Source of the DNA: a virus
Lineage: Duplodnaviria > Heunggongvirae > Uroviricota > Caudoviricetes
Length of the DNA stretch: 6,117 nt
Direction: 5' to 3' (one strand)
Virus record (IMG/VR): IMGVR_UViG_2778261389_000007
Position numbers and translations under genes: made by a program
Shown here: positions 1-5,369 of the stretch, piece after piece
Position numbering within the stretch: the stretch's first letter is position 1
Layout of the letters: every line of letters begins with the position of its first letter
The notes under the pieces: generated by a model
Seen by the model: the letters and a program-made list of their open reading frames with translations, nothing else
Told to the model about the DNA's origin: nothing
Database searches by the model: none

Positions 1-1314
1 TTAACTTACTGATTTTAATAATCCTCTACTGCTAGTTTGTGGTCTATGGGGCATCAATGGGGCAAAATCACCCAGCTTCTGATTCAGCATTGCGATCTGC
101 TCTGCGTTATTGTCTGCCATCCATGCGCCGTACACATTGAAAACCATTTGCGCACTAGCGTGCCCCATCTGACTGGCTATAAAGCTTGGATTGGCGCCAG
201 CGGCCAGTGACCAGCACGCGTAAGTGTGGCGCGACTGGTAAGCTTTTCGATGCCTGATCCCCGCCTTTTTTAACCCTGCGTCCCACGAGTCACCAAACGA
301 ATCAACCTTGTAGATAACCCCCACATCCTTACTTCGACGGACTATCTTAGGGTTAAAGACAAATGTACAGCTGTGCTGCGTTGTTCGACCATATTCACGC
401 AATTGCACGTTGATGTGATACTGCTGCCCGAGTCTAGTCATTTCCATCTGATTCCTTAACGCATCGATGGCTGGCTGAATGAGGTGTATCACTCTATCCG
501 TACTGGCGTCCGTTTTCGGTAGTGTGAACTCGCCCAGTTTTGTATAATTACGGCGAATTGTTATTGTACCCGCTTCAAGGTCTATATCTTCCCATGCCAG
601 GGAAACCAGTTCTCCGTGACGAACACCTGTGTACACCGCCAGTGACCACATGTTTTTCGTCTGCTGATGCCGGCACGCATCTATCAGACGGATGAATTCA
701 TCACGGCTGAGCGGATCTGGCTCCACCCTGGCCCTTTTTAATGGCTTTATTCCATCAAAGGGATTTGCCTTTATGTACCCATTATCGGCGGCGAACTGGA
801 ACATTCCGGCGATAGTCGTCATGTAGTAATTGACGGTGACCGCGCTCCGGCCCTTAACAGGGATCCTGCCCTTTGCCGCGCACTGATAACCCATCAAAAG
901 CTCTTTCCTGATGTACAGCAACTCTTCTTTCTCAATCGCTGTCACCAGTCGGGTAGCCCCGATCAGCGGTACAACAACTGCCACGACCGACTCGTACCGT
1001 TTGTGCGCGTTCGCGCTGATTTCCATCTTTTTCAGATCCAGCCACTTCTCTTCGAGTTCTTTCACTGTGATTTCTTTCTTGCCCAACCCAAAAATTTTAA
1101 GGTTAGGTGAATCTGGAAACCGTTCAGCATAATCAAAGCTTCCCGTGCGGATGGCAAAGCATACCGACACCCGCAGTTCCCCGGCGATCTTCCTGTTCTT
1201 AGCGGTGTCAGGGACACCGAGGTTTTCCCTGACGCGCTTACCTTTAAAATTAAACCAGATGCGCAGACTGCCACCGTGGTTTTCGACGCCTGTTGGATAT
1301 GTGATTTTATCCAT
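1..1314 (-). CDS. int: Phage tyrosine integrase (lambdoid Int family), 437 aa
   Basis: Seen: full ORF with ATG at 1314..1312, preceded on the minus strand by GGAGG with a 5-nt spacer; stop TAA at 3..1. Established: N-terminal arm-type region (MDKITYPTGVENHGGSLRIWFNFKGKRV), then tyrosine-recombinase motifs in canonical order: TGVRHGEL (catalytic Arg, about aa 232), SRHTYA (Arg-His box, about aa 362), GHASAQM...NVYGAW (His about 385, nucleophile Tyr about 395). Resembles E. coli lambdoid prophage integrases from memory; not searched. Confidence 0.93.
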   Translation of the reverse strand: MDKITYPTGVENHGGSLRIWFNFKGKRVRENLGVPDTAKNRKIAGELRVSVCFAIRTGSFDYAERFPDSPNLKIFGLGKKEITVKELEEKWLDLKKMEISANAHKRYESVVAVVVPLIGATRLVTAIEKEELLYIRKELLMGYQCAAKGRIPVKGRSAVTVNYYMTTIAGMFQFAADNGYIKANPFDGIKPLKRARVEPDPLSRDEFIRLIDACRHQQTKNMWSLAVYTGVRHGELVSLAWEDIDLEAGTITIRRNYTKLGEFTLPKTDASTDRVIHLIQPAIDALRNQMEMTRLGQQYHINVQLREYGRTTQHSCTFVFNPKIVRRSKDVGVIYKVDSFGDSWDAGLKKAGIRHRKAYQSRHTYACWSLAAGANPSFIASQMGHASAQMVFNVYGAWMADNNAEQIAMLNQKLGDFAPLMPHRPQTSSRGLLKSVS

Positions 1315-1369: not shown

Positions 1370-1606
1370 TCATCCTGGCTGCTTGCTTTTCATTGAAGCG
1401 ACCCAGGCATCTACAGCCTTTCTGTTATACATGCACTCACTGGAAGGTTTTGGATTCCCGTCAGGTGATACGTGGATATACTCCCTCCCAACCATCCAGC
1501 ACTCTTTTCTGGCCCGGAGGATGGTACCGGGCTTGAGCCCGGTAACCGCGATAAGAACGCTTTCACAAACCCAATCGTTAGGAGCTAACTGAATAACATT
1601 GCTCAT
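1370..1606 (-). CDS. xis: Excisionase-like protein (putative Xis / recombination directionality factor), 78 aa
   Basis: Seen: 78-aa ORF immediately upstream of int on the same strand with a 55-nt gap; ATG at 1606 preceded by GAGGCGGG. Inference: position and size fit lambdoid xis; the basic central segment (KPGTILRARKECWMVGREYIHVSPDG) is consistent with a small DNA-binding excisionase. Family membership not verified. Confidence 0.65.
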   Translation of the reverse strand: MSNVIQLAPNDWVCESVLIAVTGLKPGTILRARKECWMVGREYIHVSPDGNPKPSSECMYNRKAVDAWVASMKSKQPG

Positions 1607-1615
1607 ATACCCGCC

Positions 1616-1762
1616 TCACACCAAGTCAAGGCCACGGCAGTGGCGCCACACATCAAACATCCGCTTTACCACTTCCCTACAGTAAAAACCGTCGCAATCT
1701 CGCGTAAGGTCGTAACGGCTCCCGTACCGTTGGCGCACCCATATTTCAAATGCTTTGTGCAT
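1616..1762 (-). CDS. Small hypothetical protein, 48 aa, Cys/His-containing (MHKAFEIWVRQRYGSRYDLTRDCDGFYCREVVKRMFDVWRHCRGLDLV); absent from the supplied ORF track
   Basis: Seen: hand translation of the minus strand. ATG at 1762..1760 shares one base with the TAA stop of the upstream gene (TAATG); stop TGA at 1618..1616 lies 9 nt before the xis ATG and overlaps its GAGG Shine-Dalgarno. Fills an otherwise unexplained 155-nt gap in a tightly packed operon. Too short for the ORF track. Function unknown. Confidence 0.5.
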   Translation of the reverse strand: MHKAFEIWVRQRYGSRYDLTRDCDGFYCREVVKRMFDVWRHCRGLDLV

Positions 1763-2073
1763 TACTTCACCTCTGCAGATAACGTCGTCACAATGACATG
1801 CTGGCGCGCCTTGGGTTTTATCAGAAAAATAGCCTTGTCATGCCTGAGCCCGTATCCACCTTCACGTTCGCAGCGTGCGACTGAGGCGCACAAAGAGCGG
1901 GGAATACCTTTCTTGCTGACATCAAATACCCAGGCGTTTTTGAGATCGAGGATCAGATTTCCTACATCGCCACCAATGCGTTCGATATAGCGTTCAATAG
2001 CGTGAACAGTCACCATGTAGTGGCGAAACTGCACACTTCCTGAGGCGGTCATTATTGGTGTAGTGGTGGTCAT
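1762..2073 (-). CDS. Hypothetical small phage protein, 103 aa, with HAIERYIERIG motif (possible small toxin-like/nuclease-like fold; speculative)
   Basis: Seen: the track ORF 1762..2109 has an in-frame ATG at 2073 preceded by a strong Shine-Dalgarno (GGAGGTGAAGTG then ATG) and sharing one base with the upstream gene's TGA stop (TGATG), so the 103-aa form is preferred. Inference: the HAxERxxER motif and hydrophobic C-terminus (VIVTTL) are reminiscent of small toxin-like domains, recalled from memory only. Confidence 0.7.
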   Translation of the reverse strand: MTTTTPIMTASGSVQFRHYMVTVHAIERYIERIGGDVGNLILDLKNAWVFDVSKKGIPRSLCASVARCEREGGYGLRHDKAIFLIKPKARQHVIVTTLSAEVK

Positions 2074-2534
2074 CACTTCACCTCCACGCCGATCCCGGCA
2101 ATGACACAAGCTCGCTCTATAGCTTCTTTCACCCAGCGCTTATAGGTTTCCGGATGGAATACTTCGCTTTTCCCGGTATCGCTCCAGAACGCTTTTGACG
2201 TAATATCTGGCAGGGTGATGGTCAACGGTTTACCAGAAGTGACATCGCTAACCACTCTCTCCCAGTGGTCGCCAGTCTGCGATTCAAGACGCTGAATTAA
2301 CTCCCCAATACTTAAAGGGGCGATCAACTGCTGGCGTAAGCGCTGAATCTCCGCCGCCATGTAGTAACCGGTTTTGCTCCAGGTATCTACATCATCACCG
2401 GCCATATCCGGTTCCATCGTCGCCATCAGAACGGCGTCGTGATAGTCCTGGCTGCCATTGGTGATCGCGACAGCGTAGGTATCACTGTTTTCGCGCTTAT
2501 AGATAAGCACGACAGGGTTAGTGATTTTGCTCAT
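2073..2534 (-). CDS. Hypothetical phage protein, 153 aa
   Basis: Seen: ORF with ATG at 2534 in a 4-nt ATGA overlap with the upstream gene's stop (2531-2534, plus-strand tcat); its TGA stop overlaps the start of the downstream 103-aa gene. Mixed amino-acid composition typical of real coding sequence. No recognisable motif. Confidence 0.75.
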   Translation of the reverse strand: MSKITNPVVLIYKRENSDTYAVAITNGSQDYHDAVLMATMEPDMAGDDVDTWSKTGYYMAAEIQRLRQQLIAPLSIGELIQRLESQTGDHWERVVSDVTSGKPLTITLPDITSKAFWSDTGKSEVFHPETYKRWVKEAIERACVIAGIGVEVK

Positions 2535-2743
2535 TTCGCCGTCTCCCGCTCAGCTTCGATGATGGCATCTACAGCCATCACCAGAGTTCTGGCTAGGTCG
2601 TCGTAATCCTGCCATGCATCATTGCTAAAAAAATTCGTGAGCATTACCGGCGCTATCTGCACAACGAGGTGCTGGCGGTAAGTCATGCCACGGGGAGTAT
2701 CAATGCGCGGGCATGGGTAAGCTGAATGCTGGCCTTTGCTCAT
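2531..2743 (-). CDS. Hypothetical small phage protein, 70 aa
   Basis: Seen: ORF bounded by ATGA overlaps at both ends (2740-2743 and 2531-2534). Function unknown. Confidence 0.7.
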   Translation of the reverse strand: MSKGQHSAYPCPRIDTPRGMTYRQHLVVQIAPVMLTNFFSNDAWQDYDDLARTLVMAVDAIIEAERETAK

Positions 2744-2964
2744 CGTGTCGCCTCTCGTTGAATTGTCTTGTAGGCTCGCAACATATCGCGAGATTTTCCG
2801 GACAAAACCGTCTTCATGAAGAACATTCCACTACGGTTTGCAACTATTCCTGGTGTGCAGAGCAGTGTGGCGTCTACCACGCGGTTATGTTTACGGAACT
2901 CAAACACAGTACTGGTGATCACGATGTTCGCTACGGCGCCATAGTCCTGGTATTGGATTTTCAT
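2740..2964 (-). CDS. Hypothetical small phage protein, 74 aa (MKIQYQDYGAV...)
   Basis: Seen: the track ORF extends to 3006, but the in-frame ATG at 2964 forms an ATGA overlap with the upstream gene's stop (2961-2964) and has GGAG about 10 nt upstream; the 3006 ATG has GGTGG directly abutting it with no spacer. The shorter start is preferred. Confidence 0.65.
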   Translation of the reverse strand: MKIQYQDYGAVANIVITSTVFEFRKHNRVVDATLLCTPGIVANRSGMFFMKTVLSGKSRDMLRAYKTIQREATR

Positions 2965-4930: not shown

Positions 4931-5145
4931 CGTTTTAATTCTCCGTTATACGTTTCATGACTCATTACTTCCCAGTTCTTGCCGCCATCGCGGGATAGCA
5001 GCCGCCAGCGCGGATTAACCTTCAGGCTGAGAAATCCGGTGCGTCGCATACGTCGTGCATATACTCGCTTCCGTCGGTATCGCAGCAGGACCTGCATCGC
5101 CTGCAGGTGTACGCGTTCAGGTATTCGAATTGCTGTCAGTGCCAC
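4927..5145 (-). CDS. Hypothetical Arg-rich small protein; start uncertain (GTG at 5145 gives 72 aa, ATG at 5097 gives 56 aa)
   Basis: Seen: ORF whose stop is ATGA-coupled to the downstream 168-aa gene. The N-terminal part is very Arg-rich with rare CGA/CGG codons (RYRRKRVYARRMRR) and overlaps the 3' end of the frameshifted gene upstream; the C-terminal part (SRDGGKNWEVMSHETYNGELKR) looks more protein-like. Could be a small basic nucleic-acid-binding protein, or partly a non-coding frame. Confidence 0.4.
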   Translation of the reverse strand: MALTAIRIPERVHLQAMQVLLRYRRKRVYARRMRRTGFLSLKVNPRWRLLSRDGGKNWEVMSHETYNGELKR

Positions 5146-5369
5146 CAGTTAGCTCCTGTATACGTAACCCGGCTTCGCGAGCCATTTTGATAAAAGTGTC
5201 CAGTGCGCAAATATGTTCGTCGTCGAGCAGCCGGCGGTCGCATGTCACACGCCCTTTTTCGATGTAAAGAACCACGCGTCCGGTGAAATCCGGAAGCACA
5301 TGCAGATCCACGTTGAGGACTGGGGGGGGGGATCTGCATTCCGTGCATAATTGTTTGTTGTGAGGCCAT
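5117..5369 (-). pseudogene. Small phage ORF split by a frameshift in a G10 (minus-strand C10) homopolymer; an 83-aa product would be restored by a 1-nt contraction
   Basis: Seen: ATG at 5369..5367 is TGATG-coupled to the upstream gene's stop and reads MASQQTIMHGMQI-PPP into the C-run, after which that frame turns Arg-rich (SPQRGSACASGFHRTRGSLHRKRACDMRPP...). The -1 frame after the run is protein-like (VLNVDLHVLPDFTGRVVLYIEKGRVTCDRRLLDDEHICALDTFIKMAREAGLRIQELTGGTDSNSNT, stop at 5117). With 9 rather than 10 G the two halves join in frame (hand-checked). Confidence 0.5.
5300..5339. repeat. Perfect 10-bp inverted repeat (ATGCAGATCC / GGATCTGCAT) with a 20-nt spacer containing the G-run
   Basis: Seen: plus strand 5300-5309 atgcagatcc and 5330-5339 ggatctgcat are exact reverse complements. 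The G10 run (5322-5331) fills the 3' part of the spacer and runs 2 nt into the right arm. Each arm contains a GATC. Confidence 0.85.

What the first reader, a model, noticed from the sequence alone, without database searches (positions are those of the whole stretch)
1616..1762. Unannotated 48-aa Cys/His-containing micro-ORF wedged between xis and the next gene
The 155-nt gap in the ORF track holds a 48-aa ORF whose ATG shares a base with the upstream gene's stop (TAATG) and whose stop overlaps the Shine-Dalgarno of xis. That degree of coupling is hard to explain for non-coding DNA in this operon. The product has C23, C28, H41 and C42 (DCDGFYC ... RHC), a possible small metal-binding module. 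Its position next to xis could mean a recombination-directionality accessory or a small regulator.
Basis: seen in the sequence. Interest (0 to 1): 0.45.

Follow-up and report, generated by a model that had tools for sequence, protein, structure and literature searches.

The report
Conserved small phage gene beside xis
The 48-codon ORF between xis and the next gene is a real, selection-maintained small prophage gene from an already catalogued family of unknown function, but it is neither a conserved zinc-binding protein nor specifically tied to the excisionase.

Summary
The ORF is at 1616..1762 (minus strand) as described. It has 48 codons, TAATG start/stop overlap with the upstream gene, and its TGA stop sits inside the GAGG Shine-Dalgarno of xis. 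It is a genuine gene. It is intact in 103 of 105 related loci from Escherichia to Morganella, with median dN/dS 0.14 in its own frame and above 1.2 in four of the five other frames. It is not new. RefSeq annotates the identical protein (WP_047400036.1). It matches PHROG 3871 end to end and equals BP-4795 ORF3 and Fels-1 STM0895.1n. About 14% of complete E. coli genomes carry it.

The metal-site idea fails for the family. C23 is Cys in 8 of 123 clusters, and some lineages have no Cys or His at any proposed position. AlphaFold predicts a helix, β-hairpin, helix mini-domain with no known structural relative.

Enterobacterial copies sit directly upstream of excisionases from six unrelated families. 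However, DNA homology breaks exactly at the TGAGGT joint, identical copies pair with different Xis families, and distant members lie in the nin/replication region. The most likely reading is a stand-alone early accessory protein. Its function is unknown.

The parts
1616..1762 (-). 48-codon CDS (stop included) of the PHROG 3871 family. Predicted fold: helix (residues 2-13), beta-hairpin (about 21-27), helix (30-42).
   Evidence: ORF list. PHROG 3871 match over 1-48/48, E=1.6e-32. Identical to annotated WP_047400036.1. dN/dS. AF2 pLDDT 90.
1768..1773 (-). GAGGTG Shine-Dalgarno for the small gene, 5 nt upstream of its ATG and inside the 3' end of the upstream gene.
   Evidence: Read from the sequence.
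1762..1764 (-). TAA stop of the upstream 103-aa gene, sharing base 1762 with the ATG (TAATG).
   Evidence: In related loci the upstream gene stops between a few bases of overlap and 3 nt before the ATG in most cases, although it belongs to about 15-19 different families.
1607..1618 (-). Joint TGAGGCGGGTAT: stop codon, xis Shine-Dalgarno (GAGG 1617-1614) and spacer up to the xis ATG. This is also the mosaic breakpoint between the early-left arm and the int-xis cassette.
   Evidence: Sequence. The junction TGAGG[T/C]N5-8-start recurs in front of six excisionase families. Homology of 97-100% ends exactly at TGAGGT in L091 versus L067.
1370..1606 (-). xis (78 aa, DUF1233 / phrog_539 excisionase), the downstream neighbour.
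   Evidence: Pfam PF06806 E=1.3e-32. phrog_539.
1..1314 (-). Tyrosine integrase (437 aa); context only.
1762..2073 (-). Upstream neighbour, a 103-aa hypothetical protein with no family match; context only.

Best explanation
Shown. The ORF is a bona fide protein-coding gene of a small family restricted to temperate phages of Enterobacterales (PHROG 3871; BP-4795 ORF3, Fels-1 STM0895.1n, RefSeq WP_047400036.1). It is the last accessory gene of the leftward early operon and lies exactly on the mosaic joint with the int-xis cassette. It has its own strong Shine-Dalgarno. Its start overlaps the stop of the preceding gene, and its own stop lies inside the xis Shine-Dalgarno.

Inferred. It is made from the same early transcript as xis after induction or infection. 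Ribosomes that finish it are placed to start on xis. The product is a basic, aromatic-rich mini-domain of about 45 residues (helix, beta-hairpin, helix). Its fold depends on a hydrophobic and charged core (F5, E6, Y17, D22, G25, Y27, R29, E30, M35, W39), not on a conserved metal site. It most likely acts as a stand-alone small binding or modulator protein aimed at a partner conserved across host genera. This would put it in the same class as other small accessory proteins of lambdoid early operons. It is probably not a cofactor specific for a given excisionase. Its molecular target is unknown.
For: Coding status.
- The ORF is intact in 103 of 105 loci.
- In 17 species-level loci, in-frame mean pN/pS is 0.29 and median dN/dS is 0.14, with close pairs at 0.03-0.26. 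Four of the five other frames exceed 1.2; the wobble-matched antisense frame gives 0.44 but has stop codons in every locus.
- Mean pairwise difference by codon position is 0.24/0.19/0.48.
- Indels between homologues are in frame.

Known family.
- Full-length PHROG 3871 match.
- 182 clusters at 90% identity, all about 47-49 aa and named 'hypothetical/Bacteriophage protein'.
- Only 28 representatives among 1.8 billion proteins.
- 774 of 5426 complete E. coli genomes carry it, always annotated as a hypothetical protein. 44 phage records carry it.

Fold.
- AF2 gives pLDDT 90.

Not metal-dependent.
- Column frequencies and lineages free of Cys and His.

Not Xis-specific.
- The identical protein sits upstream of both phrog_539 and phrog_2917 excisionases.
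- The homology breakpoint falls at TGAGGT.
- The E. coli Nissle prophage has the same int-xis at the same site without it.
- Distant members lie after NinH, NinG or a helicase rather than near xis.

Operon packing.
- No promoter-like or terminator-like sites in 1200-2300.
Against: - No experiment or paper on any member was found, so expression and function are inferred.
- In the Enterobacteriaceae clade the gene is immediately upstream of an excisionase in 96 of 105 loci and in 10 of 17 species-level loci. The excisionases come from six PHROG families, while the upstream neighbour varies over about 15-19 families. This asymmetry could reflect a functional tie to excision that this explanation treats as inherited gene order.
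- One natural in-frame fusion to a DUF1233 Xis exists.
- C28, C40 and C42 are each kept in 77-85% of clusters. That is high for cysteine and may mean a metal or redox role in most members.
Confidence: 0.7

Rival explanations
1. A generic helper of prophage excision. The protein would work together with whatever excisionase lies downstream. It could act through a host factor used by all of them (Fis/IHF-type DNA bending, or Lon/FtsH proteolysis of Xis) or by setting the rate of xis translation. That would explain why it stays welded to the xis start.
For: - It lies directly upstream (gap of 10 nt or less, TGAGG joint) of excisionases of phrog_539, 2917, 66, 1300, 1553 and 629.
- The upstream neighbour is highly variable.
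- There is an in-frame fusion to DUF1233 Xis in L107/P0098.
- 15 of 17 species-level loci have it within one gene of xis.
Against: - There is no covariation with the Xis family, and the homology breakpoint falls between the two genes.
- The same int-xis cassette occurs without it.
- Distant members and two enterobacterial sub-clades lie in the nin/replication region.
- Fusions to the upstream neighbours also occur (P0118 with DUF4222, P0033 with phrog_1001), so the Xis fusion may be an accident.
- Conserved gene order in lambdoid phages is enough to explain the adjacency.
Confidence: 0.17
2. A small zinc-binding (beta-beta-alpha, zinc-finger-like) regulator. In the window's variant, C23-x4-C28-x12-H41 has classical C2H2 spacing with C42 as the fourth ligand. 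Most other members carry C28 plus a C40-x-C42 motif.
For: - The predicted hairpin followed by a helix fits a beta-beta-alpha topology.
- C28, C40 and C42 are conserved at 78%, 77% and 85%.
- The C-x-C-[KR]-G tail persists in several distant members.
Against: - C23 is Cys in 8 of 123 clusters, and H41 is variable (H 72%, otherwise Y/E/A).
- 22 of 123 clusters have two or fewer candidate ligands, and Morganella members have none.
- No zinc-finger Pfam model matches.
- The best-conserved residues are aromatic and charged, not Cys or His.
Confidence: 0.1
3. A leader ORF whose only role is translational coupling. Under this reading the act of translating it matters for xis expression and the peptide itself does not.
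For: The stop codon lies inside the xis Shine-Dalgarno, and this joint is conserved in front of different downstream genes.
Against: There is strong purifying selection on the amino-acid sequence along the whole ORF. The fold is confidently predicted. Family members occur in other genomic positions with other downstream genes.
Confidence: 0.03

Closest known systems
PHROG 3871 (unknown function); members include BP-4795 ORF3 (CAD88806.1), Fels-1 STM0895.1n (YP_001700536.1), and RefSeq WP_047400036.1 / WP_001030158.1
   Same: Full-length homology (E=1.6e-32 over 48 of 48 profile positions). Same length. Same place next to int-xis at the prophage end.
   Different: Nothing of substance. The window protein is a member, and it is identical to WP_047400036.1. 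No member has a known function.
Lambda lambdap35 (NP_597778.1), the 55-aa hypothetical gene directly upstream of lambda xis
   Same: A positional analogue: a small uncharacterised gene as the last early-left gene before xis.
   Different: No detectable homology (hhalign probability 0.3%).
Small host-directed or regulatory proteins of lambdoid early operons (lambda/P22 CIII, Kil, Ral, and the Nin and Ea proteins)
   Same: Same size class. Same operons (early-left end and nin region). Non-universal, mosaic distribution. The functions of CIII, Kil and Ral are from general knowledge of lambda biology.
   Different: No sequence similarity to any P22 small early protein tested. The target is unknown.
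Classical beta-beta-alpha C2H2 zinc finger
   Same: A predicted hairpin plus helix. In the window variant, C-x4-C-x12-H spacing.
   Different: There is an extra N-terminal helix. There is no second His at +3 to +5. The ligands are not conserved in the family. No Pfam or structural match.

Membership tests
PHROG 3871 small phage protein family | Full-length match to the family profile | tested here: met
   E=1.6e-32, residues 1-48 on profile 1-48 of 48. All 52 aligned homologues match.
PHROG 3871 small phage protein family | Conserved core residues of the family (F5, E6, G14, Y17, D22, G25, Y27, R29, E30, M35, W39) | tested here: met
   All are present in the window protein. Column frequencies are 92-99%.
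PHROG 3871 small phage protein family | Encoded in the early region of temperate phages or prophages of Enterobacterales | tested here: met
   The window is an int-xis-early-left arm. Homologues occur in 44 phage records and 502 IMG/VR loci.
Zinc finger / small metal-binding module | Four metal ligands conserved across homologues | tested here: not met
   Frequency of the proposed residue: C23 6.5%, C28 78%, C40 77%, H41 72%, C42 85%. 22 of 123 clusters keep two or fewer. Morganella members keep none.
Zinc finger / small metal-binding module | Match to a zinc-finger sequence or structure family | tested here: not met
Zinc finger / small metal-binding module | Bound metal in the protein | not testable with these tools
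   Needs purified protein.
Recombination directionality factor accessory | Consistent genomic linkage to an excisionase | tested here: inconclusive
   Immediately upstream of an excisionase in 96 of 105 loci (six families). But distant members and some clades lie in nin/replication regions.
Recombination directionality factor accessory | Co-inheritance or covariation with its partner Xis | tested here: not met
   The identical protein occurs with phrog_539 and phrog_2917 Xis. The mosaic breakpoint lies between the two genes. The same xis occurs without it in E. coli Nissle.
Recombination directionality factor accessory | Effect on excision or integration | not testable with these tools
   Needs genetics in a lysogen.
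Leader / coupling ORF without a functional peptide | Stop codon positioned at the downstream gene's ribosome-binding site | tested here: met
   TGAGG, 7 nt before the xis ATG. The joint is conserved.
Leader / coupling ORF without a functional peptide | No constraint on the amino-acid sequence | tested here: not met
   Median dN/dS 0.14, and four of the five other frames exceed 1.2.
Known anti-phage defence components (PADLOC) | Match to a defence-system protein model | tested here: not met
   No hit for the ORF or its neighbours.

The most novel reading that the evidence does not exclude
The protein is a generic helper of prophage excision that does not depend on the Xis family and rides on the border of the integration cassette. 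For example, it might raise or stabilise any downstream Xis through a host factor, or through reinitiation at the shared TGAGG joint. That would explain why one small gene sits in front of six unrelated excisionase families.
Probability: 0.12. Interest if true: 0.6.

Novelty: already known. Interest (0 to 1): 0.25.

Why it matters
For genome annotation, this is a true gene and should be called. Some classic records (phiP27, VT1-Sakai) still miss it. Biologically it is one more conserved small phage protein with no known function. It is present in about one in seven complete E. coli genomes, including Shiga-toxin prophages.

Two results are mildly new, and I found neither described in the literature searched. 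First, the gene sits precisely on the recombination joint where int-xis cassettes of six different excisionase families are exchanged. Second, it carries the ribosome-binding site for whichever excisionase follows. If the protein or its translation influences Xis output, it would be a general control point for prophage excision. If not, it is an ordinary accessory gene.

Tried and rejected
- Pfam, NCBIfam and PADLOC scans of the ORF and its neighbours: no informative hit.
- A weak, recurrent match to phrog_343 (38 of 52 members, best E=2.7e-4). That family also has no known function, and I could not retrieve its members.
- Exhaustive HMMER search of 1.8 billion representatives: 28 hits. The two long ones (P0090, P0099) are repeat-protein artefacts.
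- Homology to P22 NinY, NinZ and other small P22 early proteins was tested because some members occupy those positions. None was found.
- Homology to lambda lambdap35: none.
- A CII-type TTGC-N6-TTGC box inside the ORF (1694-1707, one mismatch). The count is no higher than chance, and the V23 homologues encode a different residue at that spot, so it is unlikely to be conserved.
- Promoter and terminator scan and Rfam scan: nothing.
- Literature: four full-text searches, the supplements of the O157 Sakai small-gene Ribo-seq paper, and the Enterobacteriaceae microproteome preprint. No mention of this protein.
- The fusion with Xis was considered as evidence of interaction. I down-weighted it because deletion fusions with upstream neighbours also exist.

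Full report
**What is in the window.** All long ORFs lie on the minus strand and form the left end of a lambdoid prophage:
- a tyrosine integrase (1..1314);
- a DUF1233-type excisionase (1370..1606; Pfam E=1.3e-32, phrog_539);
- the 48-codon ORF (1616..1762);
- a 103-aa hypothetical gene (1762..2073);
- further early-left genes, including a BRO-N/Ant-like protein.

The stretch 1300-2200 is 99.9% identical to the E. coli G3/10 chromosome. There the prophage lies next to a DUF72 gene, yecN and cmoA.

**Check of the observation.**
- The ATG is at 1762-1760 and shares base 1762 with the TAA of the upstream gene (TAATG).
- A GAGGTG Shine-Dalgarno lies 5 nt upstream of the ATG.
- The TGA stop (1618-1616) overlaps GAGG (1617-1614), which lies 7 nt before the xis ATG (1606).
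- Cys23, Cys28, His41 and Cys42 are present.

An ATG-to-stop ORF of this length occurs in 0.5% of shuffles of the 158-nt stretch. The claim "unannotated" is wrong for public records. PGAP annotates the identical protein in G3/10 (WP_047400036.1) and an 81%-identical homologue in other E. coli genomes (WP_001030158.1). Every listed match among 774 of 5426 complete E. coli genomes lies under a "hypothetical protein" CDS. It is ORF3 of phage BP-4795 and STM0895.1n of Fels-1. It is left uncalled in phiP27 and VT1-Sakai.

**Is it a gene?** Yes.
- The protein matches PHROG 3871 over its whole length (E=1.6e-32).
- A search of 5.8 billion proteins found 78, and with a profile 182, clusters at 90% identity. 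Nearly all are 47-49 aa. They come from Escherichia, Salmonella, Citrobacter, Klebsiella, Enterobacter, Cronobacter, Pantoea, Serratia, Hafnia and Morganella.
- I collected 105 loci: 19 from species-representative genomes, 80 of 502 from IMG/VR, and six phage and E. coli records. The ORF is intact in 103.
- The two exceptions are a CAA->TAA change at codon 4 in what looks like a decayed Morganella prophage (L021, few long ORFs around it) and a 3' remnant in a Klebsiella genome (L022).
- Over 17 species-level loci, the ORF frame has mean pN/pS 0.29 and median dN/dS 0.14, with close pairs at 0.03-0.26.
- Four of the five other frames give values above 1.2. The wobble-matched antisense frame gives 0.44, but it contains stop codons in every locus.
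- Mean pairwise difference by codon position is 0.24/0.19/0.48.
- Length differences between homologues are in frame.

**The protein.** AlphaFold2 with a 52-sequence alignment gives a confident model (mean pLDDT 90). It shows a helix at residues 2-13, a short beta-hairpin around 21-27 and a helix at 30-42.
- In BFVD the only good match is a family member. The rest are weak matches to uncharacterised phage proteins.
- An exhaustive HMMER scan of 1.8 billion representatives returned only 28 hits. The two long ones are repeat artefacts. This is a narrow family that stands alone as a single small domain.
- The best-conserved positions are F5, E6, G14, Y17, D22, G25, Y27, R29, E30, M35 and W39.

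**The metal-site idea.** Among 123 near-full-length clusters:

| Position | Main residue | Frequency |
|---|---|---|
| 23 | Cys (otherwise V/I/D/Q/M/T) | 8 of 123 |
| 28 | Cys | 78% |
| 40 | Cys (Arg in the window protein) | 77% |
| 41 | His (otherwise Y/E/A) | 72% |
| 42 | Cys | 85% |

Twenty-two clusters keep two or fewer of these five residues. Morganella members read ...NYAREIVRRMFEVWRAAKG, with none of them.

Two caveats remain. The window variant has classical C-x4-C-x12-H spacing. Most members also share C28 plus a C-x-C-[KR]-G tail. A metal or redox role in part of the family is not excluded, and I give it about 0.1.

**The link to xis.** In the Enterobacteriaceae clade the gene sits directly in front of an excisionase (gap of 10 nt or less) in 96 of 105 loci. 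The excisionases belong to six PHROG families with no detectable mutual similarity in BLASTP:
- phrog_539 / DUF1233 (72 loci);
- phrog_2917 (11 loci);
- phrog_66, AlpA-like (6 loci);
- phrog_1300, PrtN-like (4 loci);
- phrog_1553, HTH_17-like (2 loci);
- phrog_629, Exc-like (1 locus).

The joint is always TGAGG[T/C], then 5-8 nt, then a start codon. The upstream neighbour, by contrast, falls into about 15-19 different clusters. One contig (L107) encodes an in-frame fusion of a family member to a DUF1233 Xis. These points speak for a tie to excision.

Several results speak against a specific tie:
1. The identical 48-aa protein occurs in front of both phrog_539 and phrog_2917 excisionases. Near-identical proteins occur in front of AlpA-like and HTH_17-like ones.
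2. In such a pair (L091 versus L067), DNA identity is 97-100% through the small gene. It drops to random exactly after TGAGGT. The small gene therefore belongs to the early-left arm, and the int-xis cassette is exchanged at its 3' end.
3. The E. coli Nissle prophage, at the same integration site, has a 93%-identical xis. A 3'-5' exonuclease gene precedes it, and the small gene is absent.
4. In Serratia (L017), Intestinirhabdus (L015) and phage PhiR5_2 (L025) the gene lies in the nin region, next to NinG, NinH and Q. The most distant members lie after NinH, after NinG or after a replicative helicase.
5. Deletion fusions with the upstream neighbours also exist (P0118 with DUF4222, P0033 with phrog_1001). 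The Xis fusion is therefore weak evidence.

Conserved gene order among recombining lambdoid genomes is enough to keep a "last gene before xis" in place.

**Most likely mechanism.**
- *Shown:* a selection-maintained small gene, packed into the operon, with its own ribosome-binding site. Its stop lies inside that of xis. There are no promoter-like or terminator-like signals nearby and no Rfam match.
- *Inferred:* it is co-expressed with xis from the early-left transcript, and terminating ribosomes are handed to xis. The peptide itself is a basic, aromatic-rich mini-domain. Because its sequence stays constant while phage neighbours change and hosts range from Escherichia to Morganella, it probably binds a conserved cellular or general phage component. 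This would resemble other small accessory proteins of lambdoid early operons.
- *Weights:* stand-alone accessory protein about 0.7; generic excision helper about 0.17; metal-binding regulator about 0.1; pure coupling leader about 0.03.

**Comparison with what is known.**
- It is a member of PHROG 3871 (all tested criteria met), a family without a known function.
- Lambda has a positional analogue, lambdap35 (55 aa, directly upstream of xis). It is unrelated.
- No P22 small early protein is related.
- No paper mentioning the protein was found.

**Verdict.** The gene is real but already catalogued. The zinc-module reading is not supported for the family, and the excision-accessory reading is not supported as a specific partnership. 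The one point worth remembering is that this small gene marks the exact joint at which integration cassettes with six different excisionase families are swapped, and it supplies the ribosome-binding site for the excisionase. Interest is low to moderate (0.25).

Noticed in passing
window 5322-5331: A G10 run (C10 on the coding minus strand) splits an early-left ORF. As it stands, the 77-aa ORF 5136..5369 changes frame after MASQQTIMHGMQIPPP. Removing one G gives a continuous 83-aa ORF that runs into the 5117..5311 frame. This is either a sequencing error or a slippage-prone tract.
   Followed up: partly
L091 vs L067 (IMG/VR), joint equivalent to window 1607-1618: The mosaic breakpoint between prophages with different int-xis cassettes falls exactly after TGAGGT, which is the stop of the small gene plus the Shine-Dalgarno. 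Identity is 97-100% upstream and random downstream.
   Followed up: yes
L107 3962-4336 (Logan DRR526068 contig): A natural in-frame fusion of a diverged family member (about 49 aa) to a DUF1233 excisionase. It is called as the 111-aa protein P0098, and a longer 125-aa reading starts at ATG 3962.
   Followed up: partly
window 2740-2964 and 2531-2743 (minus strand): Two other small genes (phrog_1001, 74 aa; phrog_2728, 70 aa) are found upstream of the 48-aa gene in Citrobacter, Pantoea and Trabulsiella loci and in the Chryseobacterium-labelled record L007. Diverged phrog_1001-like copies also occur in Superficieibacter, Pantoea and Morganella loci. A deletion chimera of phrog_1001 with the 48-aa protein exists (P0033). 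This may be a recurring small-gene set.
   Followed up: no
L007 (record titled Chryseobacterium sp. 18061) and H41 (Elizabethkingia phage EKP1): Copies of this enterobacterial phage gene at 81-83% identity, with enterobacterial-type neighbours, appear in records assigned to Flavobacteriia. This suggests contamination or a wrong host assignment.
   Followed up: no
L108 (E. coli Nissle-type strain EcN_Sk): A prophage at the same DUF72/yecE site has a 93%-identical xis and the same type of integrase. A 3'-5' exonuclease gene sits directly upstream of xis and the 48-aa gene is absent.
   Followed up: partly
window 2073-2534 (minus strand) / L001 3774-4235: The 153-aa ORF is intact and 98% identical in E. 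coli G3/10. PGAP annotates only its last 171 nt there, as a partial 'ATPase' pseudogene. This is probably an annotation artefact.
   Followed up: no
window 1640-1990 (plus strand): A 116-aa GTG ORF lies antisense to the small gene and its upstream neighbour. The antisense frames show no purifying selection (pN/pS above 1.3) or contain stops in homologues. It is spurious.
   Followed up: yes
window 1694-1707 (minus strand): TTACGCGAGATTGC, a one-mismatch match to the CII-type TTGC-N6-TTGC box, lies inside the ORF. The number of such matches in the window (7) is no higher than in shuffles (8.3). Homologues with Val at position 23 would lack the second TTGC.
   Followed up: partly
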